64,000 nt of DNA, from NCBI GenBank assembly GCA_965231215.1, contig OZ246423.1, forward strand, positions 854,699-918,698. The letters run 5' to 3'. The notes beneath the pieces were generated by a model that saw nothing but the letters and a program-made list of their open reading frames with translations, was not told the DNA's origin and did not search any database. Shown here one piece after another: positions 49,281 through 64,000 of this stretch. This stretch comes from Candidatus Altimarinota bacterium. GTDB taxonomy: Bacteria; Patescibacteriota; Gracilibacteria; UBA4473. Numbering within the stretch: the first letter of the stretch is position 1; each line of letters starts with the position of its first letter. Both the position numbers and the translations under genes were made by a program.

Positions 49281-50837
49281 CTATTCGAGTAAAAGTTTGT
49301 CGCCTTCTTTAAGTCCACTCAGAATTTCAATATGGCCGTTGGTATCTCTAATACCCGTTTGGACTCCAACCTCTACCACTTCTTGTGATTGGTTATGGGT
49401 TTCTAAAATTCGAACAATTTTTTCATTTCCGTCCCGGATAACTCGTCGTTGAGGAACTTTAATAATGTTTTCTTTTCGGGCAGTAATAATGTCGACATCT
49501 ACGGACATACCTGAACGAATTTCGAGTTCAATATCCTTTGGGTCAAGTGCAATTTTTACTTGATAATAAGTGACCCCTCCTACTTCGGTTTCAGCAGGTT
49601 CAATAAATTTTACAACACTTTCGAAGGTGTGATCATCAAAGGCATCAAACATAATCTCTACCGGATCATCAATATTAATTTTGGCTACATCAATTTCCGG
49701 AACATTGAGTTCAATTTCATAGCCTTCGCCGATCATCGAAATTAAAATTTCTTTAGCCGTCATCAGTGAAATAACTTCACCTTTTTTAGCATTTACTTTA
49801 GTAATAATTCCATCAAAGGGAGCATAGAGAATGGTTTTATTAATTTGAGCCTGGATTTGAGCCACCCGGGCTTGCGCCCCAAGAACCGCTGCTTCGTACA
49901 TTTCAATTTGCTCTTCACGTGTTCCGACCTGGGTAAGATTGAGTTCTTGTGCACTTGTATCAAGTGATTTTTGAGCGATGAGTAAATTTTGCCGAGCGTT
50001 TCTGAGTCCTGAAATAGCGGTGTTAATATTGCTTTGAGTGCTACTGATACTATTTTTCCAGCTATCAAGTTTACTTTGGGATTGAGTAACCGTGACGTGA
50101 AAAGTATGGCTGATACCCACTAAGTCATCCACAAACACTTTTAGTTGATCTAGATTTTTCTCCACCTTTTGTGCCGTAAGGTCAAGATTATGCGTTGTTA
50201 TTTTATGCATTTCGCTTTCCCAATTTTTCACCATTTGATCCAAATAAAAAAGCTGGTGATTGAGTTGTCCTAACTCGGTAGTATGGGTAGTGGCAAAAGC
50301 GATTTTTGAACGGTTGTAGCCAGGATTGTAGGTAAGTCCTCGAAGAGTGTTACGAACAATAAAACTGGCAGTAGTAAAAGCTTCACGGATTTCAATTTCT
50401 AGATCCTGTTCCGCATTTTTGAGAGTGGTTTCCGAAGAAGATTTTTTAGAAATCTGAATCTGAACTTCTTCTTCACGGTTTCCTTTTTGAGCTTCTTTAA
50501 GCTGTGCCTGAACTTGACGAAGATTGGCAATAGCTTCGGTTTTTTGAGCCCAAAGTTCTTGATTGGTAAGTTTTACAAGGGTGTCTCCACTTTTTACAGA
50601 ATCACCTACTTTTACGTACACTTCCTGAATTTTTCCATTATTTTCAAAGGTCAGGTCAGATTCATCAATGGGTTTGACTTTTCCAGTAACACTCACTTTT
50701 TGAGTGATATCAGATTTTTCAATCGTCTGATATTCATAGTCTTTTTGTTCTTCCTGGAATTTTATAAGATAAAGCGTAGTTCCAACACCCAGTAATATGC
50801 TCAGGAGAAGAAGGCGTTTCCAAGTAAAAAATTTCAT
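49281..50837 (-). CDS. HlyD/MacA-family periplasmic adaptor (membrane fusion) protein
   Basis: N-terminal TM helix, a lipoyl-like segment (VKVGDSVKSGDTLVKL), a long coiled coil and a beta-barrel C-terminus. Confidence 0.8.
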   Translation of the reverse strand: MKFFTWKRLLLLSILLGVGTTLYLIKFQEEQKDYEYQTIEKSDITQKVSVTGKVKPIDESDLTFENNGKIQEVYVKVGDSVKSGDTLVKLTNQELWAQKTEAIANLRQVQAQLKEAQKGNREEEVQIQISKKSSSETTLKNAEQDLEIEIREAFTTASFIVRNTLRGLTYNPGYNRSKIAFATTHTTELGQLNHQLFYLDQMVKNWESEMHKITTHNLDLTAQKVEKNLDQLKVFVDDLVGISHTFHVTVTQSQSKLDSWKNSISSTQSNINTAISGLRNARQNLLIAQKSLDTSAQELNLTQVGTREEQIEMYEAAVLGAQARVAQIQAQINKTILYAPFDGIITKVNAKKGEVISLMTAKEILISMIGEGYEIELNVPEIDVAKINIDDPVEIMFDAFDDHTFESVVKFIEPAETEVGGVTYYQVKIALDPKDIELEIRSGMSVDVDIITARKENIIKVPQRRVIRDGNEKIVRILETHNQSQEVVEVGVQTGIRDTNGHIEILSGLKEGDKLLLE

Positions 50838-50977
50838 TAATTAAAAAATGGTAGAATTACCCCATTTTATCACATTTCTTGTATATTTACAAAACAAATA
50901 CAGGCTGGATCTTTCGGTTCAAAATTGATAATTTTAAATGCATTTGAGTATAGTGTGATCAAATATTATGTTTTTCT

Positions 50978-51613
50978 ATGAAAATTGCGCCCTCCATTCT
51001 TGATGCGGATTTTGGTAATCTTCAAACAGATATTGATTCTATTGCGACAGCCGATCGTATTCACCTGGATGTTATGGACGGGCACTATGTACCTAATATT
51101 AGTTTTGGTCCGCCGGTTTTAAAAAATATTAAATATCCTGTGCCTTATGAAGTGCACCTCATGGTGGATAACCCAGAAAAATTTGTAGAATATTTTGCCC
51201 CTATGGGAGTTATGGGAATAACGTTTCATATAGAGAATACAGGGACAGAAAAAGCTCTAGCGCTGCTCGAAACCATTAAGAAAAAAGAAATAAAAGCGGG
51301 TATTTGTATTGATGGATACACGGAGCCAGAAGCCTTGAGTGATGAAATTTTAGACATCACAGATCAAATACTAGTAATGTCGGTCAAAGCCGGATTTGGG
51401 GGACAGTCTTTTATGCCCCAGTCAACCGAAAAAATTCAAACACTTCGAGCTCGAGGCTACACCGGAGAAATAGAGGTAGATGGAGGGGTCACCCTGGAGA
51501 ACGTTAAAATACTGAGCGAAGCGGGAGCCGATATAGTGGTAGTAGGAAGTTTTTTAATGAAAAAAGGGATTGAAGAAAGAGCTCAAATCATTAAGAATTT
51601 CCAGGCTATATAA
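50978..51613 (+). CDS. rpe: Ribulose-phosphate 3-epimerase
   Basis: MKIAPSILDADFGNL ... HLDVMDGHYVPN ... VDGG. Confidence 0.9.
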   Translation: MKIAPSILDADFGNLQTDIDSIATADRIHLDVMDGHYVPNISFGPPVLKNIKYPVPYEVHLMVDNPEKFVEYFAPMGVMGITFHIENTGTEKALALLETIKKKEIKAGICIDGYTEPEALSDEILDITDQILVMSVKAGFGGQSFMPQSTEKIQTLRARGYTGEIEVDGGVTLENVKILSEAGADIVVVGSFLMKKGIEERAQIIKNFQAI

Positions 51614-51621
51614 GCTCATTT

Positions 51622-52188
51622 ATGTTTACTGGAATTATTCAGCAACTGGGAAAGATTAAAACCATAAAAGGATCACGGTTTGTGATTTCTCATAATTTTA
51701 CAGAGGCTCTAGAGATTGGGGAATCGGTGGCCCTGAATGGAATGTGTTCAACGGTGGTAGAATTTTCTGATAAAGATTTGGCTGTAGATATTATGGCTGA
51801 ATCTCGGAGTGTAACTACTTTTGGGACAGCGCAAGCCGGGACCTTGGTAAATCTAGAACGGTCGGCCAAAATGGGGGAACGAAACTCTGGTCATAATGTA
51901 ACTGGACATGTCGATCAAGTCGGGGAAATAGTGAAGATTAAACCCCTGTCAGATTTTTATTTAATACGCGTGAAATTTAATCCGGAAAACCGAAAATTTT
52001 TGGTGCATAAGGGCTCAGTCGCTCTTGAAGGTATCTCCTTAACCATCAGTGGTTTAGGGGATGATTTTTTTGAAGTTTCGATTATTCCACATACTTGGCA
52101 GCACACAAATCTGTATGATAAAATTGAAGGAGATGGCGTAAACCTAGAGTTTGATATTTTTGGGAAATACGTTCTCAACTTAAAATAA
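51622..52188 (+). CDS. ribE: Riboflavin synthase alpha chain
   Basis: MFTGIIQQLGKI ... SVALNGMCSTV ... VALEGISLTI (two lumazine-binding repeats). Confidence 0.85.
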   Translation: MFTGIIQQLGKIKTIKGSRFVISHNFTEALEIGESVALNGMCSTVVEFSDKDLAVDIMAESRSVTTFGTAQAGTLVNLERSAKMGERNSGHNVTGHVDQVGEIVKIKPLSDFYLIRVKFNPENRKFLVHKGSVALEGISLTISGLGDDFFEVSIIPHTWQHTNLYDKIEGDGVNLEFDIFGKYVLNLK

Positions 52189-52260
52189 GCACTAAAAATT
52201 CAGTCAGTAATTGAGTGACAGCGTATCTTTATTATTTAGGAAAGGCTCTAAACCTACACC

Positions 52261-52524
52261 ATGATAAAAAAAATTCTGAACTTCCCAGATAAACTCATCA
52301 GTCAATTGCTTATTGGCTGCATCCGTGTGTATCAACGTACGATTTCTCCAGATCACTCGGCGCTAGGGAAAACCGAACCTTTTAAGGGCTGTAAGTTCTA
52401 CCCGTCTTGCTCACAGTATGCGGTAGAAAGCTTAGAAAAAAAAGGGATTTGGTCTTTACCCAAAATTGTATGGAGGGTTTTGAGGTGTAATCCGTGGAGT
52501 AAAGGAGGCATAGATAAACCTTAA
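52261..52524 (+). CDS. yidD: Membrane protein insertion efficiency factor YidD
   Basis: YQRTISP ... CKFYPSCSQYA ... RCNPW. Confidence 0.85.
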   Translation: MIKKILNFPDKLISQLLIGCIRVYQRTISPDHSALGKTEPFKGCKFYPSCSQYAVESLEKKGIWSLPKIVWRVLRCNPWSKGGIDKP

Positions 52525-52528
52525 AATT

Positions 52529-52556
52529 AAGAATTGCCATTTGATCTGCAATTCTT
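52529..52556 (+). terminator. Hairpin after yidD (weak terminator candidate)
   Basis: AAGAATTGC with a 10-nt loop and GCAATTCTT, followed by ATCTTT. Confidence 0.35.
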
Positions 52557-52568
52557 ATCTTTAGGCTG

Positions 52569-53501
52569 ATGGTTTTATTTTCGATTCTCGTTTTCTTTGT
52601 GATCTTCTCAATCTTGATTCTTATTCATGAGTTTGGGCACTATTACGCCGCCATTAAATCAGGAGTAAAAGTAGAAGAATTTGGATTGGGAATGGGCAAG
52701 AAATTGTATGGAAAAAAATACGGAGAAACCGAATTTACTTTCAATGCGGTTCCTTTTGGGGGTTTTGTCCGAATGTTAGGAGAGGAAGAAACCTCAAAAG
52801 ATCCACGAAGTTTTGGGCAAGCACCTCTGCTGAACCGAATGATTATTACGCTTGCTGGCGTGTTTATGAATTTTGTACTAGCTATAGGGTTGTTAACGAT
52901 TCTTTTTACTATCGGAACCAATCCCATTTTGGTTTCGAAGCAAGATATTGACAGAGCCCATGAAAAAGGCTGGATAGAGTTCCAAAACGAAGCAGGAAAC
53001 GTTCTAGAAAAAAATCAGATTGAAGCTGAAAAAGAAGCCGGGAGAACGGTCTCAATCACCTATACTCAAAAGATTAAAAAACCTTTCCCGCAGTCTGTGT
53101 GGTTTGCCACGACCGAAACCGTAAGAATTTCTTATGCCGTGTTGCAGAAAGCGGCCGAGATACCAGTTGAACTGATTAAAGAAAGGCGGATACCAGAAGG
53201 GCTAGCCGGCCCTATAGGGATCGCAGAAGTCACGCATCGGGTTATTCCCCTAGGGTTTTTGGCCTTGGTCAAATTGACCGCACTGCTTTCAATATCTCTT
53301 GGAGTGATGAACCTTTTACCCATTCCAGCTCTGGATGGAGGGCGGTTTATTTTTCAGCTAGTAGAACTGATTTTGAAACCTTTCAAAACCAGACCAAGTG
53401 AAACTATTGAAAATTTTGTACATTTAGGAGGATTTGTTCTGCTTATGGGGTTGCTGTTGCTCATTACCTGGAACGATATCTATAGGATTTTTGTTTTATA
53501 G
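52569..53501 (+). CDS. M50 site-2 protease (RseP-like), short form without an obvious PDZ domain
   Basis: HEFGHY zinc motif in TM1 and NLLPIPALDGG near the C-terminus; only 310 aa. Confidence 0.8.
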   Translation: MVLFSILVFFVIFSILILIHEFGHYYAAIKSGVKVEEFGLGMGKKLYGKKYGETEFTFNAVPFGGFVRMLGEEETSKDPRSFGQAPLLNRMIITLAGVFMNFVLAIGLLTILFTIGTNPILVSKQDIDRAHEKGWIEFQNEAGNVLEKNQIEAEKEAGRTVSITYTQKIKKPFPQSVWFATTETVRISYAVLQKAAEIPVELIKERRIPEGLAGPIGIAEVTHRVIPLGFLALVKLTALLSISLGVMNLLPIPALDGGRFIFQLVELILKPFKTRPSETIENFVHLGGFVLLMGLLLLITWNDIYRIFVL

Positions 53502-53628
53502 TCCTGCTGGGTTATTTTGTTTTTGTAAGTATGGACTTCTCACACTACAAGAAAATAGAGAGAGGAATTCCGATATTTCTAGAGGAGAACAATTAGCTCT
53601 AGTTGAAACTACTTGGCTTTATTTCTGT

Positions 53629-53656
53629 TTGACAAAAAATTCCTCACTCCTAAACT
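53629..53656 (+). promoter_or_regulatory. Putative rplY promoter
   Basis: TTGACA (53629-53634), 16 nt spacer, TAAACT (53651-53656). Confidence 0.4.
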
Positions 53657-53678
53657 CGCGCGGCTTATTTGAAGAATA

Positions 53679-54329
53679 ATGGCTGAAACTTTTGCCTTGG
53701 CTGCCGAAAAAAGAGAAATTTCTAAACATTCTGCTCGAAATACTCGTCGTGAATACAAAATTCCTGGCGTGGTGTATGGACACGGCCTTGATCCAGTTCC
53801 AGTATCAGTAGATTATTCAGAATTTTTAAGACTTTTTCGTAAAGCGGGTCAATCTTCAGTTATTGACCTAACTATCGATGGAAAAGCCACAAAAGTTTTA
53901 GTACAAAAATATGATCTTGATCCGGTAAAAGATACATTTGTTCATGTTGATTTCTTTGCGGTCAACCTCAAAGAAAAAACGATTGTCCGTGTGCCCCTTC
54001 ATTTTGAAGGAGAATCAATGGCCGTTAAAAACCTTGGAGGTATCTTTAATGTGGCTCATCATGAACTTGAGATCCGATGTCTTCCAACCGAAATTCCACA
54101 CGATATTAAAGTAGATATTTCTAGTCTAGAAAATGTCCACGATCATATTTCTATTGCAGACCTAAATCTTTCAGAAACTTTGGAAGTGATGCATCTAGAG
54201 GCTGGAACGGTGCTGTGTACCGTAACAGCGGCTCGAGTTGCGGTCGAAGAAGAAACTACCGCCGGAGGTGAAGAAGGGGAGGGAGCTGAAGGTGCCGATG
54301 GAGGAGAAGCCAAAGCCGAAGACGCTTAG
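53679..54329 (+). CDS. rplY: 50S ribosomal protein bL25 (Ctc form) with an acidic Gly/Glu tail
   Basis: RREYKIPGVVYGHG ... HVDFFAV pattern; 216 aa. Confidence 0.85.
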   Translation: MAETFALAAEKREISKHSARNTRREYKIPGVVYGHGLDPVPVSVDYSEFLRLFRKAGQSSVIDLTIDGKATKVLVQKYDLDPVKDTFVHVDFFAVNLKEKTIVRVPLHFEGESMAVKNLGGIFNVAHHELEIRCLPTEIPHDIKVDISSLENVHDHISIADLNLSETLEVMHLEAGTVLCTVTAARVAVEEETTAGGEEGEGAEGADGGEAKAEDA

Positions 54330-54374
54330 GGAGTAGTTGCTTATCTCTCGTAATTTATTTAGTTTAGAAGGTGA

Positions 54375-55088
54375 ATGGAGCCTTATGTTTTTGAAACCTT
54401 TAGAACTTTTGATCAGCATAAAATTTTTCAATTAGAAATGCACTTGGATCGACTGTTCCATTCGGCCAGAACTTTGGATATAGAGCTGCCTCAAAATTGC
54501 ACAAAGCCTCATATTTGTACCAAGCTCCAAGAGATATTGAATCTCCATAACCCACAAAAAGATTGGCGTATAAAGATAGAGGCCAGTGCGAAAGACTGGA
54601 AGATTATTGTGAATCCCTTTGTGCCACTACCAGAAAGTATTTATCAAGAAGGAGTGCGATTGGTAAGTGATAGATGTCTAAGAGATAATCCCACAGCCAA
54701 AGCTAATTCTGAAAGGTACAAGTACTACGCCCAAAAGTGCGAAAAAATCTTTTTTGATGTTATGGTGTTTGATGAAAATCAAAACCTGCTTGAAGGAGGT
54801 ATCACGAATATTTTTGTTGTTTTTGGGAAAACCGTTATAACGCCTAAAGACCATATTTTGTTGGGCACTATGAGGTCTTGGGTTATAACCCAATTGCCTA
54901 AGCTCGGGTATAGCGTTCAAGAAAAAAAAATTACCTATCTGGAGATGAAAAAAGCCAAAGCTATTTTTTGCACTAATGCCCTAAAAGGGGTGGTGCCGGT
55001 AGGTTTCTGGGAAGATTGGGCAAGCCGGGACTTTGAGCTCGCTAAAAAGCTAAACCAAAAACTTCCTTTTCCACGCCCTAAGAGTTGA
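54375..55088 (+). CDS. Class IV (fold type IV) aminotransferase-like protein
   Basis: HLDRLFHSA, EGGITNIFVV and GVVPV motifs. At 237 aa it is short for the family. Confidence 0.6.
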   Translation: MEPYVFETFRTFDQHKIFQLEMHLDRLFHSARTLDIELPQNCTKPHICTKLQEILNLHNPQKDWRIKIEASAKDWKIIVNPFVPLPESIYQEGVRLVSDRCLRDNPTAKANSERYKYYAQKCEKIFFDVMVFDENQNLLEGGITNIFVVFGKTVITPKDHILLGTMRSWVITQLPKLGYSVQEKKITYLEMKKAKAIFCTNALKGVVPVGFWEDWASRDFELAKKLNQKLPFPRPKS

Positions 55089-55128
55089 AAGATTTGGCTA
55101 TTTCTGGTACAATGATCTGGTAAATTTT

Positions 55129-56043
55129 ATGTCCAGTTTTTCTGTTATCATTCCCAGCTATAATGAAGGTGCGTGGCTTGAACGCACTGTTATGGGCGTA
55201 CTGGAGAATACCAATTACCCAGAGTTTGAGATCATTATTGTAGCCGATAACTGCACCGATAATTCTACCGATTTTTGTAAACAAAAATCTATTCCCAACG
55301 TAGTGCTCTTGGAAACTTCACACAATTTGGGAGCGATAGAAGCTCGGAATTATGGCGCTTCTATTGCCGAGGGAGAAAACTTAGTCTTTATTGATGCTCA
55401 TGAAGTTCCGGAAACCGATAATTGGATTTCGGTGCTATTTGACTTGCTTGAGAAGCCTAATACGGGAGCGGCAACAATACCGATTTCAAGCTTCGAAGAC
55501 CCTCAGAGGATTGGGTATGTGTATCGCCTTAAGGATTTGGCGCTAGAGCCTGCTTGGGAGTCGAGAGAATCAAAACATTTACCATTAGTACCGGTTATTC
55601 CTGGGGGGTGTTTTGCCATTAAAAAATCTGTATTTATCGAAACAGGAGGGTTTAATCCTTTGTTAAAAAAGTGGGGGAGAGAGGACCTAGAATATTCGCT
55701 TCGTTTGTGGCGAATGGGATATGATTTGAGGTCGTCAAAGGCAGCTAAGATTGCTCACGCATTTAGCCATAAAAGAGCATTTGAGATTAGTTGGGATCAG
55801 GTGGATCATAATATTTTGCTTATTGCTGATTTATTGTTTTCCTCAGAGGCGTGTAAAAAAGTTTGTACACATTTAAAAAAGATTCGTCCACAGAATTATG
55901 ATAAAATTTATCAACAATTATTAAATAATGAAGCCTACCAAGCTTACAAAGCAAAACTACTGCTAAAGCGTAGTTTTGAGGACTATAAGATCGAGTTTAA
56001 AGACTATTTACCAAAAAATTATTCTCTTATACCACAAGTATAA
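55129..56043 (+). CDS. Family 2 glycosyltransferase
   Basis: FSVIIPSYNEG, IIVADNCTDNS and FIDAHE (DxH) motifs. Confidence 0.8.
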   Translation: MSSFSVIIPSYNEGAWLERTVMGVLENTNYPEFEIIIVADNCTDNSTDFCKQKSIPNVVLLETSHNLGAIEARNYGASIAEGENLVFIDAHEVPETDNWISVLFDLLEKPNTGAATIPISSFEDPQRIGYVYRLKDLALEPAWESRESKHLPLVPVIPGGCFAIKKSVFIETGGFNPLLKKWGREDLEYSLRLWRMGYDLRSSKAAKIAHAFSHKRAFEISWDQVDHNILLIADLLFSSEACKKVCTHLKKIRPQNYDKIYQQLLNNEAYQAYKAKLLLKRSFEDYKIEFKDYLPKNYSLIPQV

Positions 56044-57281
56044 AACATTCCAAGCCCTATATTTTTCCAGTCATTATCACTTCCAACTCTTAATGGAGTA
56101 GTGCTATAGCCAATATAACTAGGGACGATTGATCCAAGCTCTCCATGGTTTCCACTTCCCCAACACCATAAAGCACCATCATTCTTTATCGCACAAGAGT
56201 GAGAGTATCCTGAAGCAACGCTTTCCCAAGTGTTCTCACTTCCTACCTGTGTAGGAACCCTCTTACTACCTGTATAGCGTTTTCCCTGACCAAGCTGTCC
56301 ATAGTGATCTCCCCCCCAACACCACAAAGTATTATCTGTTTTTATCGCACATAAGTGTCTTTTTCCTATACCAATACTTTTCCAAGTATCGGTACCAACC
56401 TGAACGGGAGTACTTCGATCTATAGCATCATTCTGTCCTAGTTGTCCATAACGGTTATCTCCCCAGCACCACAAGGTATTATTATTTTTAGTCGCACAGG
56501 CAAATTTATTTCCAAGGTAAATATTTTTCCAATCGTTATCGCTACCAACTTGCACAGGGCTCGGTTGGTTATCTGATGGATCATTACTACCAATTCCAAG
56601 TCTTGAATCAGAATTACTCCCCCAACACGACAAAGTATTATCAGTTGTTATTCCACAAGTATGATCTAATCCTGCTGAAACATCTTTCCAAGTACCAGGT
56701 AATCGCTTAGGGTAATGTTCATACTCATGAATTCCTCCTTTTCTGCCTATTCCTAGCTTCCCAAGGTAAGTGTGTCCCCAACACCATAACGTATTATCAT
56801 CTTTTATTGCACAAACATGTCCAGCTAAACCAAATTCTATAGTATCTGCCAGACTACTTAAGTATGAAGGACTCATTCCCCAACATTGAAGATTATTTCC
56901 ACTTGAAATAGCACAAAAGGAATTCACCCCAATTCCAACTTTGTTCCAACTACTACTTTCAAACTGCTCAGGCTCATGAGTATTTGATAATCCTGGAAGA
57001 GGTGAGCTTCCCCAGCACCAAAGAGCCTCTGGAACATGGCATGCCGAAAATTCAATATTTATGGGTTTATTATTCAGAAAAGAGTGCCATCCTGTGGTGG
57101 TTTGAGTTGGAACAAATCGTTCTTTCCCATCCAAGCTCTTAATTTTTTTACAAATTCCATGAGCATTAATTATTTTATCGGCTGTTCCAATACGGAATCC
57201 AGTAAGAATGGTATTAATTGCAAAAACCTCGTCAAAAAGAAGCAATAACGAAAGTAAGAAAAATAATTTTTTTGTTCTCAT
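56019..57281 (-). CDS. Secreted RCC1-repeat (seven-blade beta-propeller) protein
   Basis: Signal peptide MRTKKLFFLLSLLLLFDEVFA. About 7 repeats of the (N)TLWCWG ... GQLG type. The ATG overlaps the stop of the upstream fibre gene (ATGA). The 3' end overlaps the GT2 gene by 25 nt. Confidence 0.8.
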   Translation of the reverse strand: MRTKKLFFLLSLLLLFDEVFAINTILTGFRIGTADKIINAHGICKKIKSLDGKERFVPTQTTTGWHSFLNNKPINIEFSACHVPEALWCWGSSPLPGLSNTHEPEQFESSSWNKVGIGVNSFCAISSGNNLQCWGMSPSYLSSLADTIEFGLAGHVCAIKDDNTLWCWGHTYLGKLGIGRKGGIHEYEHYPKRLPGTWKDVSAGLDHTCGITTDNTLSCWGSNSDSRLGIGSNDPSDNQPSPVQVGSDNDWKNIYLGNKFACATKNNNTLWCWGDNRYGQLGQNDAIDRSTPVQVGTDTWKSIGIGKRHLCAIKTDNTLWCWGGDHYGQLGQGKRYTGSKRVPTQVGSENTWESVASGYSHSCAIKNDGALWCWGSGNHGELGSIVPSYIGYSTTPLRVGSDNDWKNIGLGMFYTCGIRE

Positions 57282-59155
57282 AGATTCATAACTTCCTTTA
57301 ATTTATTAATTTGTTCTTGTTGATTTTCAATTAATTTCTGTTGTTGATCCGTTAGTTCTTTCATTTCTTTTAAGGCCTCAACAAGTATGGCATTTATATT
57401 TCCATAGCGAACCGACTTCAGCCCATCCACCTCGCTTGTTTCTACGAGTTCTGGTAGGACTCTTTCAACATCTTGAGCAATGAAACCAATAGAATTTTTA
57501 TCAGAATTATTCCATTTAAATTTAACACCTTCTAATTGCTGAATAATTTTTATTGGATTTTTGATTTTCAAAATGTCTTTTTTCAAACGCTTATCAGAGG
57601 AGTAAACAAAATCTGTTGCTAGAACTGTTCCTTCAACATCTAGCTTCTGAGAAGGGGCCGTCGTCCCAATCCCGACATTACCCGTATGCGCAACCGTCAT
57701 GGAAGGTGTCCCGCCATAATAGGAATTACCAGCAGCACCATCTACATAAAACCGAATATCCCCTGCATTGGACACCAAACGTATCCAGTTGCTTCCACCT
57801 TCAGAATAAAGCCCTAAATCAGTACCAGAAGCCAACCCCGCTTTGTTGATGATGCCCTCTCGAACCCTCAAACCACCACTACCAATATCCAACGTAGCAC
57901 TCGGCGTCGCCGTCCCAAGACCAATATAACCATTACCACCATCAAGCGTAAAGTGCGTATTTTCCCCAACACCACCACCCACATTAATCTTGAATTTATG
58001 ATTATCTGACTGATCCAGTCCTACAGAATACCAAGCATTCCACGGATCATGGAAACGAATTTGCGAGTCAGCATCATTATTCTCAACCTCGATATTCCCG
58101 CCGCGTATCTCTAACTTATTATCCGGATCTGCCGTCCCAATCCCGACATTGCCGCCGACAAGCGCCATGTCAGTTGCAACAGAACGTAAGATAGCCGTAT
58201 TATTACTATCTGTTGTTATATCAAGAATTCTTTGGTCACCCGCTTTATCATTATTAAAAATACTAAAAAATTGATTGTCATCTAGACTTCCTGCTGGCGC
58301 AGCGCCAAGAGCCCTGCCTGCCATTATTATCCCTGAAACATTCAACTTCGCATTAGGAGACTCCGTCCCAAGCCCGACATTGCCATTCGCTGCAATACTC
58401 AAACCATGATACCAATTGGTACCATCATTATTATAGATAGAGAGCGCATTCGGCGCACCATAAGAAGATGGTCTCTTAACAAAATCTGTAAAGTGTGAGC
58501 CACCATTGCTACTTTGCAAACGTAACGTATGGCCAGTATTATCCGGCGAAAGAACGTGCAACGGCAAACCAGGCGTCGCCGTCCCAATGCCAACCCTACC
58601 GGTTTCTGTCACTCGCATAAGTTCAGCCCAGTTACCGCCTGGGCCAGCGGCATTTTTTCCGATGACGAGGGCTCGGTTATCATTATCATCATTATTCCAG
58701 TCCATAGAAAGATAAACATTGTCTTCCCCATTTAGCTCTAGAGCTCCATTACTGTCATAAATAGTGCCGCCTCTTACCAGCAGTGTACCATCTATTTGAA
58801 GATCTCCGTCTTCATCAATGTTGGCTTTATCTGCATCGGCTCCTGTTCCAATCTGAAAGAGTTTTTCATTGGCGGTAGGAGAGGCTTTGTGAATTGAAAA
58901 ATGTGCCGGAAAAGTATCGGTTCCAATACCGACTTTCCCATTAAGATAATAGAGGTCTTGACCGCTGAAATTCCAAACCTGATAGCCTAAAATATCAACA
59001 GCGGTAGAGAGGCTTAGGAGATCAGTTCTTACCTTGTTCCAATCTGAGGCCCGAATAAGTTCTCCACTATTGACAGTGGGAGTGGTTATTGTCACCGCAG
59101 CGTAAGAAGTATTTGAGAAACTGAACAACAGCCATGCAAGCAATAGAGTTCTCAT
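57278..59155 (-). CDS. Exported modular fibre protein A with a C-terminal peptidase S74 intramolecular-chaperone domain
   Basis: Signal peptide MRTLLLAWLLFSFSNTSYA. Six GxVGIGT-headed modules. The C-terminus (57281-57598) reads SDKRLKKDI ... GFIAQDVERVLPELV ... coiled coil, matching the tail-fibre/endosialidase autochaperone. Confidence 0.8.
   Translation of the reverse strand: MRTLLLAWLLFSFSNTSYAAVTITTPTVNSGELIRASDWNKVRTDLLSLSTAVDILGYQVWNFSGQDLYYLNGKVGIGTDTFPAHFSIHKASPTANEKLFQIGTGADADKANIDEDGDLQIDGTLLVRGGTIYDSNGALELNGEDNVYLSMDWNNDDNDNRALVIGKNAAGPGGNWAELMRVTETGRVGIGTATPGLPLHVLSPDNTGHTLRLQSSNGGSHFTDFVKRPSSYGAPNALSIYNNDGTNWYHGLSIAANGNVGLGTESPNAKLNVSGIIMAGRALGAAPAGSLDDNQFFSIFNNDKAGDQRILDITTDSNNTAILRSVATDMALVGGNVGIGTADPDNKLEIRGGNIEVENNDADSQIRFHDPWNAWYSVGLDQSDNHKFKINVGGGVGENTHFTLDGGNGYIGLGTATPSATLDIGSGGLRVREGIINKAGLASGTDLGLYSEGGSNWIRLVSNAGDIRFYVDGAAGNSYYGGTPSMTVAHTGNVGIGTTAPSQKLDVEGTVLATDFVYSSDKRLKKDILKIKNPIKIIQQLEGVKFKWNNSDKNSIGFIAQDVERVLPELVETSEVDGLKSVRYGNINAILVEALKEMKELTDQQQKLIENQQEQINKLKEVMNL
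57666..57918 (-). repeat. Copy A of the 253-bp identical internal module
   Basis: Identical by eye to 60454-60706. It encodes GTATPSATLDIGSGGLRVREGIINKAG ... TPSMTVAHTGNVGIG. Confidence 0.9.
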
Positions 59156-59246
59156 ATTTATTTTTTTTCACACTTTATAATACAGGTATTTGTTTTTAGT
59201 TTAAAGTTAAATTTTCTGACTTGTTTTTTTAAAATTTTGGATGGAT
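58578..59246 (-). repeat. Copy A of the 669-bp duplicated block (upstream region, signal peptide and first ~193 codons)
   Basis: Aligns base for base with 61606-62273. By eye there are 5 substitutions in the coding part, and one 1-nt indel plus one adjacent substitution in the upstream T-run. Confidence 0.9.
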
Positions 59247-59321
59247 ATCAGCAAAATTCTCTGTTGATAAACTTTATCTGATCATTGTATCAGAAAACCC
59301 CTAAAAAATAAAGTGAGGATT

Positions 59322-62183
59322 CTATTGATTTTCCAAAGCTTCAACACGAGCTTTGAGGGCATCATTTTCAGCCTTGAGCTCTTGAATTGCTTTGACGAGG
59401 ATAGGCGCCATCTGACCATAGGCCAAAGACTTCGTGCCCATCTCATCATCCGCCGTGCTCACCAGCTCCGGCACCAAAGCCTCAACCTCTTGCGCCAAGA
59501 AACCAACCTGATGCACTTGCTCCGCCCGCTGCGCCTCATCGATCCAATCAAACGCCACCGGCTTCATCGCCATCACCGTATCCAAACCATAATCCAGATC
59601 CACCACATTGGTCTTCAACCGAGCATCAGAAAAAGTCGACCAAGTCGACCCCGTATTCGCCCCGCCCCCCCCACCAAGTGAGGACTGAGCCACACAATTA
59701 CCTCCAGAAGTATCACAAATTTGATTCGTGCGTACTCCTCCACCGTCAGCTCGAATACCCGCCCCTGAATAAAGCCACTTATTTCCATAAACTCTCAACC
59801 AAGTAGAATCGGTCATATGGAATCCTCCTCCATAATTTTGGAAATAAATTCCATTATTTCCATTCACTCGAAGCCAATCTCCTAGAATCTGAACTCCATT
59901 ATGGATGAAAATACGCCCACCAAATGTAGCATCGTTATTTTCCATATTTATAGACAAGGGCCACTGTCCATTGTATTGACACCAATTATTACCCCCTCCA
60001 ACGCCATCATTACCACAACCTCGTAAAAAATACATTACATTAGCATTCATATGTATCATGGCCGAACGATGATCTACATCTCTAAAGTAAATGGTTGGGT
60101 AATTACTTCGAATGGTTAACCCATTGGCATATCCATCGCCTCCATTCCCAACCTGAAGTTTGGTAGTTGGGCTTGAAGTTCCAATCCCGACATTGCCCTG
60201 CATACCAAAATAACTTAGGTTAGGCCTAAAAACGGCATACTCTGTATATTCTCCGGGATTATCTCTCCATCTAAAAATCCTTAACCCTTGATCATAATTA
60301 TCAATGGTAATTCGCCCATTTCTATTGCTTTCTGGATCAGCATTCATTAACACCATTTCACCTCCTTCAGTAGCTGTGTTTTGAGAGTCTATTCTCAAAT
60401 AATTGGTTCTCAAATCCCCAGCTACCTGTAGTTTTGAGGTTGGATTAGCGATTCCAATCCCGACATTACCCGTATGCGCAACCGTCATGGAAGGTGTCCC
60501 GCCATAATAGGAATTACCAGCAGCACCATCTACATAAAACCGAATATCCCCTGCATTGGACACCAAACGTATCCAGTTGCTTCCACCTTCAGAATAAAGC
60601 CCTAAATCAGTACCAGAAGCCAACCCCGCTTTGTTGATGATGCCCTCTCGAACCCTCAAACCACCACTACCAATATCCAACGTAGCACTCGGCGTCGCCG
60701 TCCCAATCCCGACATTACCAGAAGGTTTAATAGTTACTTTTTCAGAAAATGAACCAAAACCAATATTAGGGGCTAAGCCTTCAGTATTCCAATGTCCTAA
60801 TCTTATATCTGTTGTAGAGCCTGCTGCAATAGCCGGATATTGCCCATTCTTTTTCACAAACCCTAAACGAGAATTAACACCAGAGTCAGCTCCCATATAA
60901 ATATCCTCTCCAGTGGCTACTACATTTCCTCCAGCTACTAATTTTGTCTTGGTCCCAAAAGGGCTCGGAGATGTAGCAGTACCAGCCAGAACGATACCCC
61001 CTGTTGGGTTAAGCAGAAGATTCCTGGCGTTATTAGTCGCATTAAACTCTTTATGGTAAGCCTGTAACCAAGGCCCTCCATCAGCAACACCTATATCCAT
61101 AACATTTGTACTATTTACAGTCTGAAATCGAGCTATAGCCCCAGGACTAGGGGTAGTAGCATCTGGCAGCGATTGTCCAGACGATGTTACATGTAATTTT
61201 TCCAATGGAGTATTAGTCCCAATCCCGACATTGCCAGAAGCCCGAGTAACGTTGCTACCACTTTCTGTCCAGGTAGAACTCCCGCCACCACTACTCAAAC
61301 TTCCAGCGGGAACACAGTTACCTCCATTTTGATCACAGTACTCTGTAGCGCCTATTTTCCCTTCAACATCTAGCTTTAGCCCCGAGGAGGGGCTGATTGT
61401 ACCAATCCCGATATTCCCATTTCCTAGATTCAAGGTCATCATATCACCGCCACCACCAGTAGAAGAAAATCTAGCTGTATCCTGAGCTCCTGCATAAGTT
61501 TTTATTCTTAATGAGTCTGTAGCATTACTAATAATTAAGCCGTCATCACTAGCTCCACCATTAACTTTCATATCTCCGACCACCTGAAGCGCATGAGATG
61601 GATTTGCCGTCCCAATGCCAACCCTACCGGTTTCTGTCACTCGCATAAGTTCAGCCCAGTTACCGCCTGGGCCAGCGGCATTTTTTCCGATGACAAGGGC
61701 TCGGTTATCATTATCATCATTATTCCAGTCCATAGAAAGATAAACATTGTCTTCCCCATTTAGCTCTAGAGCTCCATTACTGTCATAAATAGTGCCGCCT
61801 CTTACCAGCAGTGTACCATCTATTTGAAGATCTCCGTCTTCATCAATGTTGGCTTTATCTGCATCGGCTCCTGTTCCAATCTGAAAGAGTTTTTCATTGG
61901 CGGTGGGAGAGGCTTTGTGAATTGAAAAATGTGCCGGAAAAGTATCGGTTCCAATACCGACTTTCCCATTAAGATAATAGAGGTCTTGACCGCTGAAATT
62001 CCAAACCTGATAGCCTAAAATATCAACAGCGGTAGAGAGGCTTAGGAGATCAGTTCTTACCTTGTTCCAATCTGAGGCCCGAATAAGTTCTCCACTATTG
62101 ACAGTGGGAGTGGTTATTGTTATCGCAGCGTAGGAAGTATTTGAGAAACTGAACAACAGCCATGCAAGCAATAGAGTTCTCAT
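59322..62183 (-). CDS. Exported modular fibre protein B (paralog of A) with a C-terminal peptidase S74 intramolecular-chaperone domain
   Basis: The first ~193 aa match A with a single difference (V21I). Seven GxVGIGT modules. The C-terminus (59325-59630) reads SDARLKTNV ... GFLAQEVEALVPELV ... LKAENDALKARVEALE. Confidence 0.8.
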   Translation of the reverse strand: MRTLLLAWLLFSFSNTSYAAITITTPTVNSGELIRASDWNKVRTDLLSLSTAVDILGYQVWNFSGQDLYYLNGKVGIGTDTFPAHFSIHKASPTANEKLFQIGTGADADKANIDEDGDLQIDGTLLVRGGTIYDSNGALELNGEDNVYLSMDWNNDDNDNRALVIGKNAAGPGGNWAELMRVTETGRVGIGTANPSHALQVVGDMKVNGGASDDGLIISNATDSLRIKTYAGAQDTARFSSTGGGGDMMTLNLGNGNIGIGTISPSSGLKLDVEGKIGATEYCDQNGGNCVPAGSLSSGGGSSTWTESGSNVTRASGNVGIGTNTPLEKLHVTSSGQSLPDATTPSPGAIARFQTVNSTNVMDIGVADGGPWLQAYHKEFNATNNARNLLLNPTGGIVLAGTATSPSPFGTKTKLVAGGNVVATGEDIYMGADSGVNSRLGFVKKNGQYPAIAAGSTTDIRLGHWNTEGLAPNIGFGSFSEKVTIKPSGNVGIGTATPSATLDIGSGGLRVREGIINKAGLASGTDLGLYSEGGSNWIRLVSNAGDIRFYVDGAAGNSYYGGTPSMTVAHTGNVGIGIANPTSKLQVAGDLRTNYLRIDSQNTATEGGEMVLMNADPESNRNGRITIDNYDQGLRIFRWRDNPGEYTEYAVFRPNLSYFGMQGNVGIGTSSPTTKLQVGNGGDGYANGLTIRSNYPTIYFRDVDHRSAMIHMNANVMYFLRGCGNDGVGGGNNWCQYNGQWPLSINMENNDATFGGRIFIHNGVQILGDWLRVNGNNGIYFQNYGGGFHMTDSTWLRVYGNKWLYSGAGIRADGGGVRTNQICDTSGGNCVAQSSLGGGGGANTGSTWSTFSDARLKTNVVDLDYGLDTVMAMKPVAFDWIDEAQRAEQVHQVGFLAQEVEALVPELVSTADDEMGTKSLAYGQMAPILVKAIQELKAENDALKARVEALENQ
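60454..60706 (-). repeat. Copy B of the 253-bp identical internal module
   Basis: See copy A. Confidence 0.9.
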
Positions 62184-62273
62184 ATTTATTTTTTTTCACA
62201 CTTTATAATACAGGTATTTGTTTTTAGTTTAAAGTTAAATTTTCTGACTTGTTTTTTGAAATTTTGGATGGAT
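61606..62273 (-). repeat. Copy B of the duplicated block
   Basis: See copy A. Confidence 0.9.
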
Positions 62274-62415
62274 GTCCCCAACAGGATTCTCTCTAATTTT
62301 TATGGTTTATCCTGGCATAAGATTAAAGGTTCGCCCTGCGGCTCTGAGCTGGTTTATAGTTTTCTCACTACAATAACTATCACCGAGGAATCCTCCGCTG
62401 TTAGTTCCTATCTCA

Positions 62416-64000
62416 TTAGTTTTTACGGCAATAGAGTACGGCGACATTCTTTGGTCGGGTTTCAGCGCCACCAACGGCGTTTGATGCATTCGCAATGACG
62501 CCGTTATTATAGCCTCGTTGATAATGCCCGCCAAAGGACCAACCGCTGCCATTATAGGAATTTTGCGGAATATGCTCGTGTGACTTAAATTCATCTTCTT
62601 GCGTGCTTCCCGGCGCTCTCACCCCGCCAGGGTCAATGGTTCCGGTGCTGTCAATACCCCGCAAGAAGCGTCCGCGTGCAGCGGTATATTCGCTCCATCC
62701 AGCAGGGCAGGACGTCAAGTCAAACGCCTGAATCTCTCCAGAAATTCGGCCGCCACCCGAACTGCCGCCGGAGCTGCCGAAATAGCCACAACGGCCCTCA
62801 TCACAAATATCGGCCAAATCCACACCGGCACCATCCGTGGCACCACAACGGGTGCTTAAACCACTAATACCAGAAATATTTCCAGTTCCATCAAAGGCGA
62901 TATACCGATTAAAATTCCCTACAATTGCATACCAAACCGAGTCATTCTTGTGTTCCGACATAACCAGAATCTGACCCCATGTTCCCGAGCTGTAATTACA
63001 CATCAAGTAATCCGGCCACTTCGAAACACCCGCAGGCGCGACCGGTAACTTCAGTGTCGACGCAAGATTAGACCCCGCGATAGCATCAGAAATAGCCGCC
63101 CCCGAACTCGAACCCGACCCGCCGCCGGGTACAACTTTATATACCTTATAATCCACCGTGCCGCCGCAGCCTGCATTGTTGTAGATGGTCATGGAGATTT
63201 TACTCGAGCCATCCGTTCCAAAGGTGGCGTACATATAGCCGCAGCCTGCCGTGCTATAGGTCGGTTCAAGTGCGGCGATGTATTCGTAACCGTTTGCTAG
63301 CCCCGTTACGGCAGAGGCGTATGAATTACCTGGGACAGTGGCGGTACCGGACGCTACTTCTTCCAGCCCCAGTGCGCTGCCACCCCCCGAACTCGACCCG
63401 CCGCCACCGAAATAGATGACTTTACCTTCGCTGATGAGCGTATCTATCGATTTGCCGTTACAGTCTGAGCCGGTGGCATGCGTCTGATAAGCCGCAGTCT
63501 GCGCCTTAGTCGTGGGATGGAAGATGAACTGCGCATTGTCCGAATCACTCGGGTCGGAATTCGCGACATAATAGACGCCGTTGGTTGCGTGGTCATGATC
63601 GGCGATAAACATTCGTGTGTAGCCATTTTGCGTACATTTTAGCGCATCCGGCCAGCCGGATTTGAACACACCGGTTGGTGTGCTCGAACTCGACGAACCC
63701 GAGCTGCCGCCGACTTTAAAGCCGGAGAAATGGGATTCCCTTACGGTTCGTGCGGTGCCGCCATTGTGATAGACAATGACTTCAACCACATCATTGGCAT
63801 TGAGATAGGCTATTCCAGAACAGCTAAATGCTCCTGAATTGCCTGACACTGTGGTGTTATGTCGCGCATAACAAATACTATCTGCTGCCGCGGATTTGCC
63901 AGCATGATTCTTCTGAATTCTAATGATTTGATCGGAGCCAGAGGCCTCAATTTCAGCAGAGGCGTTAAATTGGTAAAAACCTGTTGACGGCACGGTAAAT
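62416..64000 (-). CDS. Multi-domain protein with a C-terminal phage tail-collar domain. The 5' end lies outside the window.
   Basis: Globular segments are joined by Gly/Ser linkers (GGSSGSSSSS, GGGGSSSGGGS, GGGSGSSSG, SSGGSSGGG). The last 109 aa (62419-62745) read GEIQAF ... CPAGW ... RGRFLRG ... GSTQEDEFKSHEH ... ETRPKNVAVLYC, like the Collar domain. The reading frame stays open to the window edge. Confidence 0.7.
   Translation of the reverse strand, partial: FTVPSTGFYQFNASAEIEASGSDQIIRIQKNHAGKSAAADSICYARHNTTVSGNSGAFSCSGIAYLNANDVVEVIVYHNGGTARTVRESHFSGFKVGGSSGSSSSSTPTGVFKSGWPDALKCTQNGYTRMFIADHDHATNGVYYVANSDPSDSDNAQFIFHPTTKAQTAAYQTHATGSDCNGKSIDTLISEGKVIYFGGGGSSSGGGSALGLEEVASGTATVPGNSYASAVTGLANGYEYIAALEPTYSTAGCGYMYATFGTDGSSKISMTIYNNAGCGGTVDYKVYKVVPGGGSGSSSGAAISDAIAGSNLASTLKLPVAPAGVSKWPDYLMCNYSSGTWGQILVMSEHKNDSVWYAIVGNFNRYIAFDGTGNISGISGLSTRCGATDGAGVDLADICDEGRCGYFGSSGGSSGGGRISGEIQAFDLTSCPAGWSEYTAARGRFLRGIDSTGTIDPGGVRAPGSTQEDEFKSHEHIPQNSYNGSGWSFGGHYQRGYNNGVIANASNAVGGAETRPKNVAVLYCRKN

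What the first reader, a model, noticed from the sequence alone, without database searches (positions are those of the whole stretch)
57666..60706. An identical 253-bp module sits at different positions in the two fibre genes (module shuffling)
57666-57918 in fibre A (its last module before the chaperone domain) is identical by eye to 60454-60706 in fibre B (an internal module, followed there by about 800 more nucleotides of fibre). The flanking sequence on both sides is unrelated.

The block encodes one complete module, from GTATPSATLDIGSGG to TVAHTGNVGIG. Perfect identity inside otherwise diverged paralogs points to very recent non-reciprocal exchange of a single structural module.
Basis: seen in the sequence. 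Interest (0 to 1): 0.6.

Follow-up and report, generated by a model that had tools for sequence, protein, structure and literature searches.

The report
Shared module in two surface-fibre genes
Two neighbouring genes for secreted, phage-tail-fibre-like surface fibres in a tiny-genome (Patescibacteria-group) bacterium carry a letter-perfect 253-base building block at different positions, one sign among several that these fibres are rebuilt by swapping whole blocks at a short conserved joint sequence, within the genome and between species.

Summary
Window 57666-57918 equals 60454-60706 at 253 of 253 bases, in the same reading phase, with only these two copies in the 1.33-Mb genome. The block encodes one 83-residue module bounded by G-x-V-G-I-G-T joints. 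It is the last module before the S74 chaperone in fibre A (625 aa) and an internal module in fibre B (953 aa).

- The genes are not otherwise diverged. They also share a 672-bp promoter, signal-peptide and head block at 98.8%, and the module is not demonstrably younger than that block (P about 0.1).
- Every breakpoint examined lies in or next to the joint motif. Its 14-nt DNA form occurs six times, only in these two genes.
- The only relative carrying the module (G004, labelled Candidatus Altimarinota) has it before the same chaperone. That segment is 98.6-100% identical between genomes whose housekeeping genes are 65-73% identical, which indicates recent inter-species transfer.
- Two more paralogue pairs show the same kind of block sharing.

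The closest solved relatives are Bdellovibrio MAT fibres.

Best reading: recombination at conserved joints moves whole fibre modules, most likely by ectopic gene conversion.

This is a new member of a known kind of mosaic adhesin evolution, of moderate interest.

The parts
57666..57918 (-). Module M253, copy in fibre A (codons 413-497). It is the last module before the S74 chaperone, so it would be the tip of the mature fibre after self-cleavage.
   Evidence: 253/253 nt identical to 60454-60706. Translation. Module table.
60454..60706 (-). Module M253, copy in fibre B (codons 493-577), an internal shaft position. In B it is flanked by a 17-nt direct repeat, GGTAATGTCGGGATTGG.
57278..59155 (-). 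Fibre A gene (625 aa). Layout: signal peptide, conserved head (1-192), modules 193-264, 265-341, 342-415, M253, then the S74 chaperone with SDKRLK.
   Evidence: ORF; translation. Pfam PF13884 E 3e-15 at aa 520-571. PDB hits 8OND E 6e-12 and 6F45 E 1e-9.
59322..62183 (-). Fibre B gene (953 aa). Layout: the same head, module B2 (193-262), 263-323, 324-495, M253 (496-578), 579-669, a distal domain, then S74 with SDARLK.
   Evidence: PF13884 E 1.2e-15 at aa 852-908. Module table.
58578..59249 (-). Head block of fibre A: about 94 nt upstream with a promoter-like site, the signal peptide and codons 1-192. It ends exactly at the GRVGIGT joint.
   Evidence: 98.8% identical to 61606-62276 (7 mismatches, 1 gap). 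Five coding differences: three synonymous, plus two bases in codon 21 giving V21I. The same TTTAAA-17-TATTAT site occurs upstream of both genes.
61606..62276 (-). Head block of fibre B, the partner of 58578-59249.
61399..61623 (-). Module B2 of fibre B. It is 98.2% identical to the module that directly precedes M253 in the G004 fibre gene, and is also present in G004's second fibre gene.
55880..57934 (-). Segment shared with the G004 genome at about 98.6%: the 3' end of the glycosyltransferase gene, the RCC1 propeller gene, the fibre A S74 region and M253. Positions 56927-57679 (753 nt) have no mismatch at all. That perfect tract starts at the 14-nt joint motif.
   Evidence: Background identity between the two genomes is 65-73%.
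57666..57679 (-). Joint motif AATGTCGGGATTGG (codes N-V-G-I-G), one of six exact copies. The others are at 58137-58150, 60181-60194, 60454-60467, 60703-60716 and 61219-61232. Copies with one mismatch are at 58368-58381 and 61402-61415.
   Evidence: 8 matches against 0.01 expected; no exact copy elsewhere in the genome, and other paralogues encode the same peptide with other codons.
56019..57281 (-). Secreted RCC1-repeat propeller gene. Its start overlaps the fibre A stop (ATGA), and it travels with the fibre 3' part between genomes.

Best explanation
Fibres A and B are secreted, trimeric, phage-tail-fibre-like adhesins of the Bdellovibrio MAT type. Each has a signal peptide, a conserved head, a string of beta-prism modules of about 60-170 residues that each end in the loop motif G-x-V-G-I-G-T-x-x-P-x-x-K-L, and a self-cleaving S74 chaperone.

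The 253-bp identity is the footprint of a recent intragenomic copy of exactly one module between the two genes. The copy was made by recombination whose end points fall in the conserved joint motif, most likely ectopic, non-allelic gene conversion or replication template switching at the 5-17-nt joint homologies. Because every module starts and ends with the same loop, a swap at the joints keeps frame and fold. The same module can then serve as the tip in A and as shaft in B.

The same process operates family-wide and between species, so the locus is a reticulate mosaic rather than a pair of diverging paralogues.

Shown: the blocks, their identities and the positions of the breakpoints. Inferred: the recombination mechanism, its direction, trimer formation and the role in host attachment.
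For: (1) Exact 253-nt repeat, same phase, only two copies in the genome.
(2) Identity begins at the GGGAC of the 5' joint and ends after GGTAATGTCGGGATTGG of the 3' joint, which is one module period.
(3) The A and B copies share 4 differences from the G004 copy. All four changes falling on that one branch of a star tree has probability about 0.012 (my arithmetic).
(4) The head block shared by A and B ends exactly at the GRVGIGT joint.
(5) The 14-nt joint sequence occurs six times exactly, only in A and B, against 0.01 expected. It uses the uncommon codons GTC (13% of Val) and GGG (23% of Gly), whereas other paralogues spell GNVGIGT differently.
(6) Parallel cases exist. G004's two fibre genes, about 400 kb apart, share about 1,225 nt with one mismatch, and the block ends just after a joint. 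In G000, f958 nt 1555-2249 matches f961/f966 nt 967-1661 at 99.86%, at different offsets, with the 5' break inside a joint.
(7) Inter-genome exchange: B2, M253, the S74 region and RCC1 are 98-100% identical to G004, against a 65-73% background. The 753-nt perfect tract starts at the joint motif.
(8) Protein family: PF13884 matches with SDxxxK motifs. The best PDB sequence hit is the Bdellovibrio MAT fibre Bd2133 (8OND), with T5 pb1 (6F45) and the MyRF ICA domain (7DC3) also hit. A fold search returns 7DC3 and 8OND. The MAT capping-loop motif V-G-G/N-pi-x-x-P-x-x-x-L is described in PMC10769870.
(9) RecA is present.
Against: - Homology outside the tract is very short: 5 nt at the 5' side in A and 14-17 nt at the 3' side. 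That is below what RecA-dependent conversion usually needs, so the molecular route is uncertain.
- The module is not statistically younger than the 99% head block. One duplication followed by replacement of the intervening segments is not excluded.
- Direction is unresolved. Contiguity with G004 on the 3' side favours A as the original context. However, 4 mismatches in the module next to 0 in the adjacent 753 nt (p about 0.004 under a uniform model, my arithmetic) fits copying from B into A, or an inter-genome breakpoint at the joint.
- No reads could be examined, and no independent assembly contains either protein.
- The monomer structure model is low-confidence across the module (pLDDT 45-60), so 'one structural unit' rests on the sequence motif and on the published MAT structures.
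Confidence: 0.7

Rival explanations
1. Remnant of a recent tandem duplication. A proto-fibre gene (upstream region, head, further modules, M253 and tail) was duplicated whole. The head and M253 are what is left of it. The segments between them, and the tail of one copy, were later replaced by imported or paralogous cassettes.
For: - The head (99.1% in coding sequence) and M253 (100%) are statistically indistinguishable in age.
- The genes are tandem, in the same orientation, and each carries the same upstream block.
- Cassette replacement by imported DNA demonstrably happens at this locus.
- G004 has a single gene at the syntenic site.
Against: - It needs at least three separate replacements (193-415 in A; 193-495 and 579-953 in B) within the time that gave about 1% divergence.
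- Donors for most of those segments are not present in the genome. The only matches are B3 at 87% to f958 and B2 in G004.
- Two conversion events explain the same pattern with fewer steps.
Confidence: 0.2
2. Assembly or polishing artefact. Either the two copies are really only similar and were made identical by consensus polishing with cross-mapped reads, or the segments between the two direct repeats (head and M253) were mis-phased, so that the true genes are head-B2...M253-S74A and head-Z-M253-B6...S74B.
For: - No reads could be checked.
- Both proteins occur only in this one assembly.
- Two direct-repeat pairs about 3 kb apart are the configuration in which short-read assemblers can swap paths.
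- The swapped phasing would resemble G004's order B2-M253-S74A.
Against: - The genome is a single 1.33-Mb contig estimated 99.3% complete, which suggests long reads that span 3 kb.
- Both ORFs are intact and in phase.
- The M253 to S74-A junction is independently present in G004.
- Even under mis-phasing or polishing, a near-identical module would still sit in two genes at non-equivalent positions. Only the details would change.
Confidence: 0.06
3. A programmed diversification system, such as a diversity-generating retroelement with template and variable repeats, a site-specific shufflon or invertase, or a pilE/pilS-like silent-cassette system.
For: - The genome has two reverse-transcriptase genes.
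- The joint sequence is conserved at the DNA level beyond what the protein needs.
Against: - The RT genes lie about 585 kb away at 327-329 kb.
- The copies have no differences at all, so there are no adenine-specific ones.
- Both copies are in-frame parts of full genes with their own promoter-like site and signal peptide, so neither is a silent cassette.
- No inverted repeats occur in 50000-64000.
- No Rfam element lies in 55900-62600.
Confidence: 0.04

Closest known systems
Bdellovibrio bacteriovorus MAT (mosaic adhesive trimer) fibres, S74 subgroup (Caulton et al. 2024, PMC10769870; PDB 8OND, 8ONB, 8OML, 8OJN)
   Same: - Signal peptide, then a conserved N-terminal domain, then a long beta-rich fibre with recurring capping loops (V-G-G/N-pi-x-x-P-x-x-x-L, here V-G-I-G-T-x-x-P-x-x-K-L), then a C-terminal S74 chaperone with SDxxxK.
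- A multigene family in one genome, with one conserved end and one variable end.
- Encoded among cellular genes, not in a prophage.
   Different: - The host is a tiny-genome bacterium of the Patescibacteria group, not a deltaproteobacterial predator.
- Homology of the head to the Bdellovibrio N-terminal domain was not tested.
- The paper infers that tips are swapped over evolutionary time. Here internal shaft modules are exchanged, with 100% nucleotide identity and mapped breakpoints.
- The gene is linked to a secreted RCC1 propeller gene.
T-even phage distal tail-fibre and gp38 adhesin mosaicism: recombination between conserved glycine-rich motifs that flank hypervariable segments (Trojet et al. 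2011, PMC3157838, which cites Tetart et al. 1998)
   Same: Short, highly conserved Gly-rich motifs separate variable segments and act as the places where exchanges occur, so that specificity or structure cassettes are swapped without breaking the fold.
   Different: - Those are phage genes exchanged between co-infecting phages. Here the genes are chromosomal bacterial paralogues and the chromosomes of different species.
- The modules here are whole beta-prism units of 60-170 residues, not loops of 10-30 residues.
Gene-conversion antigenic variation of surface proteins, such as Neisseria pilE/pilS and Borrelia vlsE (from general knowledge, not tested here)
   Same: Non-reciprocal copying of cassettes bounded by short conserved sequences into a surface-protein gene.
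   Different: Both partners here are complete genes that appear to be expressed. There is no silent cassette archive, and no evidence of high-frequency switching.

Membership tests
MAT-type fibre (S74 subgroup) | C-terminal Peptidase_S74 intramolecular chaperone with the SDxxxK catalytic motif | tested here: met
   PF13884 E 3e-15 (A, aa 520-571) and 1.2e-15 (B, aa 852-908). The sequences read SDKRLK and SDARLK. The model has pLDDT above 90 over this domain, and the fold search hits the MyRF ICA domain 7DC3 (TM 0.64 on the target).
MAT-type fibre (S74 subgroup) | Fibre body with recurring capping-loop motif V-G-G/N-pi-x-x-P-x-x-x-L on a trimeric beta-helix or beta-prism | tested here: met
   The motif V-G-I-G-T-x-x-P-x-x-K-L occurs 6 times in A and 7 times in B. 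phmmer aligns these repeats to the Bd2133 repeats (8OND, E 6e-12). Trimer formation itself was not testable.
MAT-type fibre (S74 subgroup) | Signal peptide followed by a conserved N-terminal beta-rich domain shared by family members | tested here: inconclusive
   The N-terminus MRTLLLAWLLFSFSNTSYA/A looks like a Sec signal by inspection. The head is conserved in paralogues and across the genus at 45-79%. Homology to the Bdellovibrio N-terminal domain was not tested, because the PDB entries cover only C-terminal parts.
MAT-type fibre (S74 subgroup) | Surface exposure and binding to a partner-cell epitope | not testable with these tools
   This needs microscopy or binding assays.
Ectopic (non-allelic) gene conversion tract | A tract much more similar between paralogues than its flanks are, with sharp boundaries | tested here: met
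   253/253 identical, with flanks unalignable beyond the joint.
Ectopic (non-allelic) gene conversion tract | Paralogue copies closer to each other than to the orthologous copy in an outgroup | tested here: met
   A = B, and both differ from G004 at 4 sites.
Ectopic (non-allelic) gene conversion tract | Homologous, diverged flanks that allow heteroduplex formation at positionally equivalent sites | tested here: not met
   The positions are not equivalent (last module versus internal module). Flank homology is only 5-17 nt of joint motif. It is therefore better described as cassette transfer at micro-homologies than as classical conversion.
Ectopic (non-allelic) gene conversion tract | Non-reciprocity, with the donor unchanged | not testable with these tools
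   The ancestral states of both genes are unknown. Only one outgroup copy exists.
Conserved-motif recombination of fibre or adhesin genes (T-even gp38 type) | Breakpoints of exchanged segments coincide with short conserved motifs | tested here: met
   Breakpoints at or next to joints: the head 3' end, both ends of M253, both ends of B2, the end of the G004 fib1/fib2 block, the 5' end of the f958/f961 block, and the start of the perfect G000-G004 tract.
Diversity-generating retroelement | Reverse transcriptase next to a template repeat, and a variable repeat that differs at adenines | tested here: not met
   RT genes occur only at 327-329 kb. The repeat copies are identical.
Shufflon or invertase switching of fibre tips | Inverted repeats flanking invertible segments, plus a site-specific recombinase | tested here: not met
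   No inverted repeats of at least 30 nt in 50000-64000. All shared blocks are direct. The annotated neighbours are housekeeping genes.

The most novel reading that the evidence does not exclude
The DNA-level uniform joint sequence (GGY AAT GTC GGG ATT GGG AC) is not merely a footprint of past exchange. It would be a selected recombination signal that lets this episymbiotic, tiny-genome bacterium continually reshuffle beta-prism modules among its host-recognition fibres, and import modules from neighbouring species through its type IV pilus DNA-uptake machinery. That would amount to a cassette-based host-range or antigenic variation system for cellular tail-fibre-like adhesins.
Probability: 0.12. 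Interest if true: 0.75.

Novelty: new member of a known kind. Interest (0 to 1): 0.48.

Why it matters
Bacteria of the Patescibacteria (CPR) group are thought to live attached to other cells, but how they recognise hosts is largely unknown. This locus encodes MAT-like fibres, the device Bdellovibrio uses to recognise prey. It gives nucleotide-level evidence that the fibres are being rebuilt now, in three ways:
- whole modules are copied between paralogues;
- blocks are exchanged between species whose core genes are only about 70% identical;
- all of this happens at one short joint sequence.

That points to concrete experiments on fibre tips, binding partners and recombination at the joint. It also serves as a warning that orthology-based annotation of these genes will mislead. 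The event itself, a mosaic patch in a fibre gene family, is of a kind long known from phage tail fibres.

Tried and rejected
- Independent assemblies: neither protein, nor any copy of the module above 63% identity, exists outside G000 and G004 in the 5.8-billion-protein collection. The JGI metagenome contigs gave only distant hits.
- Alternative genetic code. The NCBI label of the nearest relative, Candidatus Altimarinota (Gracilibacteria), raised the possibility of code 25, and the fibre A stop is TGA. This was rejected. Table 11 ORFs of at least 200 aa already cover 82% of the genome, TGA ends 92 of 795 long ORFs, and there is no tRNA with anticodon UCA.
- DGR: rejected.
- Invertible shufflon: rejected.
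- Structured RNA or mobile element in the block: no Rfam hit. The block is an ordinary member of a module type found in more than 900 proteins.
- Prophage context: rejected. The neighbours are riboflavin synthase, M50 protease, ribosomal protein L25, an aminotransferase and a GT2 glycosyltransferase.
- Structure of the module: the AlphaFold2 monomer model is confident only for the S74 domain. The module region has pLDDT 45-60, as expected for an intertwined trimer, so it gave no information on module boundaries.
- GC content by module was examined to infer direction. M253 has 50% GC in both contexts, and its neighbours range from 39 to 51%, so this is uninformative.
- A GENECONV-type test is not applicable to A against B, because the flanks cannot be aligned.
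Full report
**1. The observation**

Window 57666-57918 and 60454-60706 are identical at all 253 positions (blastn 253/253). A blastn of the block against the whole 1,326,059-base genome finds only these two copies. Both lie on the minus strand inside intact ORFs:
- fibre A, 57278-59155, 625 aa;
- fibre B, 59322-62183, 953 aa.

The block begins at codon position 2 in both genes (A nt 1238, B nt 1478). It encodes GTATPSATLDIGSGG...TVAHTGNVGIG.
- In A the block is followed at once by the S74 chaperone region (Pfam PF13884, aa 520-571, E 3e-15).
- In B it is followed by another 91-residue module and a distal domain of about 180 residues before the S74 match (aa 852-908, E 1.2e-15).

One correction matters. 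The genes also share a 672-nt block (58578-59249 versus 61606-62276, 98.8%). It covers about 94 nt upstream, the signal peptide and the first 192 codons. It has five coding differences: three are synonymous, and two lie in codon 21 and give V21I.

**2. Anatomy**

Both proteins have the same plan:
- an N-terminus that looks like a Sec signal (MRTLLLAWLLFSFSNTSYA/A);
- a conserved head;
- modules of 61-172 residues, each ending in G-x-[VI]-G-[IL]-G-T and followed by x-x-P-x-x-K-L;
- a C-terminal S74 chaperone, with SDKRLK in A and SDARLK in B.

M253 is exactly one such module of 83 residues.

Where the A/B identity starts and stops:
- It starts at the GGGAC (Gly-Thr) of the preceding joint.
- It stops after GGTAATGTCGGGATTGG of the following joint.
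- In B the module is flanked by that 17-nt sequence as a direct repeat.
- In A the 5' joint is spelled differently (GGTTATATTGGTCTTGGGAC).

The head block also ends exactly at a joint (GRVGIGT).

The 14-nt core AATGTCGGGATTGG has these properties:
- It occurs six times exactly, and twice with one mismatch, against 0.01 expected.
- All exact copies are in A and B.
- The other family members in the genome encode GNVGIGT with other codons.
- GTC makes up only 13% of Val codons and GGG only 23% of Gly codons genome-wide.

So the joints of these two genes are uniform at the DNA level beyond what the protein requires.

**3. What the proteins are**

The best matches among solved structures, by sequence, are:
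- Bdellovibrio bacteriovorus MAT fibres (8OND Bd2133, E 6e-12; also 8OML, 8OJN, 8OL4);
- the phage T5 L-shaped fibre with its chaperone (6F45, E 1e-9);
- the MyRF ICA domain (7DC3).

The phmmer alignment puts our joint onto the repeated '...GNVGIGATAPTAKLEV...' units of Bd2133.

Caulton et al. (PMC10769870) define MAT fibres by four features:
- a signal peptide;
- a conserved N-terminal domain;
- intertwined trimeric beta-prisms with capping loops V-G-G/N-pi-x-x-P-x-x-x-L;
- either an S74 (SDxxxK) end or a non-S74 tip.

An AlphaFold2 model of A(331-625) is confident only for the S74 domain (pLDDT above 90). The module region scores 45-60, as expected for a monomer taken from an intertwined trimer. 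Foldseek returns 7DC3 and 8OND.

The genomic context is housekeeping, not a prophage. The neighbours are riboflavin synthase, M50 protease, ribosomal protein L25, an aminotransferase and a GT2 glycosyltransferase.

The nearest relative is a complete MAG labelled Candidatus Altimarinota, in the Patescibacteria group. The genome nevertheless reads with the standard code.

**4. Relatives**

Outside this genome the module exists in only one place: the single fibre gene at the syntenic site of G004 (OZ245819.1). The next best hit is 63% identical, and metagenome contigs gave only distant hits.

G004's gene (635 aa, P0005) reads as follows:
- a head, 76% nt identity to the A and B heads;
- a unique 161-residue module;
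- B2, which is fibre B's second module, at 98.2% nt;
- M253;
- the A-type S74 region;
- then the RCC1 gene.

The background identity between the two genomes is 65-73% (M50 protease gene 68%). The other fibre loci are 67-77% identical. Against that background:
- From about window 55880 to 57934 the identity is 98.6%.
- From 57679 down to 56927 (753 nt) there is no mismatch at all.
- That perfect tract begins at the 14-nt joint motif at the 3' end of M253.
- Within M253, G004 differs from A and B at four sites: 57910, 57907, 57836 and 57680.

From this I conclude:
- The fibre 3' part plus the RCC1 gene moved between species very recently.
- A and B are each other's closest copies of M253.
- M253 is a distinct patch even within the A-G004 shared segment.

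**5. The event is not isolated**

- G004's second fibre gene lies in its type IV pilus locus. It shares about 1,225 nt with the first gene, with one mismatch, from the mature N-terminus to just after the joint that closes B2. It then switches to an unrelated Gly-rich tail.
- In the present genome, gene f958 (nt 1555-2249) and genes f961/f966 (nt 967-1661) share 695 nt at 99.86%, at different offsets. The 5' break is inside a joint (|GTCGGAATAGGGACC) and the 3' break is in a Gly/Ser linker.
- Fibre B's third module is 87% identical to a module of f958.

**6. Mechanism and its rivals**

The simplest account is that recombination at the conserved joints moves whole modules. This keeps both frame and fold, because every module begins and ends with the same loop. 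RecA is present. The pilus and DNA-uptake type genes seen next to G004's second fibre have orthologues here, which gives a plausible route for imported DNA. That last step is inference.

For the A/B pair, two conversion events (head and M253) between pre-existing fibres are more economical than a whole-gene duplication followed by at least three segment replacements. The duplication model is not excluded, however. Zero differences in 253 nt against five in 578 is not significant (P(0) = 0.11; Fisher p = 0.33).

Direction is open.
- Contiguity of M253 with the S74-A region in G004 suggests that A is the original context.
- Four mismatches in M253 next to none in 753 nt (p about 0.004 under a uniform model, my arithmetic) fit overwriting of A by B, or an inter-genome breakpoint at the joint.

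A weakness of the account is that homology outside the tract is only 5-17 nt. Replication template switching at micro-homology is as plausible as RecA-mediated conversion.

Rejected alternatives:
- A DGR. The RT genes are about 585 kb away and the copies have no differences at all.
- A shufflon. There are no inverted repeats.
- An RNA element. There are no Rfam hits.

Three points argue against it:
- the genome is a single contig;
- both ORFs are intact and in phase;
- the M253 to S74-A junction is independently present in G004.

Even the alternative phasing would leave the module in two genes at non-equivalent positions.

**7. Comparison and verdict**

In function and architecture these are MAT-like fibres. 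The S74 domain and the capping-loop repeats were tested and met. The N-terminal domain homology and trimer formation were not tested.

In evolutionary behaviour they resemble the T-even gp37/gp38 system, where conserved glycine-rich motifs flank variable segments and host the exchanges (PMC3157838).

I found no paper in the held library linking Patescibacteria with S74 fibres.

The finding is real. It is a clean, datable instance of module transfer, and part of a larger reticulate pattern. In kind, it is a new member of a known class of mosaic adhesin evolution.

Noticed in passing
window 56927-57679 versus G004 (L016/L019): 753 nt covering the fibre A S74 region and the 5' part of the RCC1 gene are 100% identical between two genomes whose housekeeping genes are 65-73% identical. 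This indicates very recent inter-species transfer. The tract begins at the 14-nt joint motif.
   Followed up: yes
window 56269-56313 and 56825: The mismatches between G000 and G004 in the RCC1 gene are clustered: 9 within 45 nt, plus a 3-nt indel. This looks like small conversion patches among the internally repeated propeller blades rather than point mutation.
   Followed up: no
whole genome (G000): The nearest relative is labelled Candidatus Altimarinota (Gracilibacteria), a group known for reading UGA as Gly. This genome, however, behaves as standard code: ORFs of at least 200 aa cover 82% under table 11, TGA ends 12% of long ORFs, and there is no tRNA(UCA). Only 35 tRNA genes were found.
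   Followed up: partly
G000:C1:958992-970193 (L026), outside the window: Three further large secreted family members are here. f961 and f966 are 94% identical tandem duplicates (1241 and 1245 aa) with an internal periodic repeat of about 165 nt. f958 shares a 695-nt, 99.86% block with both, at a different offset.
   Followed up: partly
window 62416-64000 and on to G000:C1:922840 (L027): The upstream neighbour is a 1908-aa secreted protein with four C1q domains and a weak BclA_C match. Its first 633 nt are 95% identical to f961/f966, so it belongs to the same mosaic network.
   Followed up: partly
G004 L017 4821-6987: G004's second fibre gene sits between a PilB-like ATPase gene and pilus assembly genes. 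Its S74 chaperone is a separate 113-aa ORF, and the fibre ORF ends in a Gly-rich non-S74 tail. This may be a frameshifted or remodelled gene. G000 has only 165 bp at the equivalent site.
   Followed up: partly
G000:C1:327388-329326: Two adjacent reverse-transcriptase ORFs (455 and 674 aa frames) lie here. They could belong to a retron, a DGR or a group II intron, and are unrelated to the fibre locus.
   Followed up: no
window 59177-59205 and 62205-62233 (minus strand): The same weak sigma-70-like site (TTTAAA-17-TATTAT, 9 of 12 matches) lies in the duplicated upstream block of both fibre genes. Both genes therefore appear equipped for their own transcription.
   Followed up: no
window 55400-55880: Identity to G004 rises in steps along the glycosyltransferase gene: about 50-60%, then about 78-86%, then 98%. 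This suggests layered recombination events of different ages at the edge of the shared segment.
   Followed up: no
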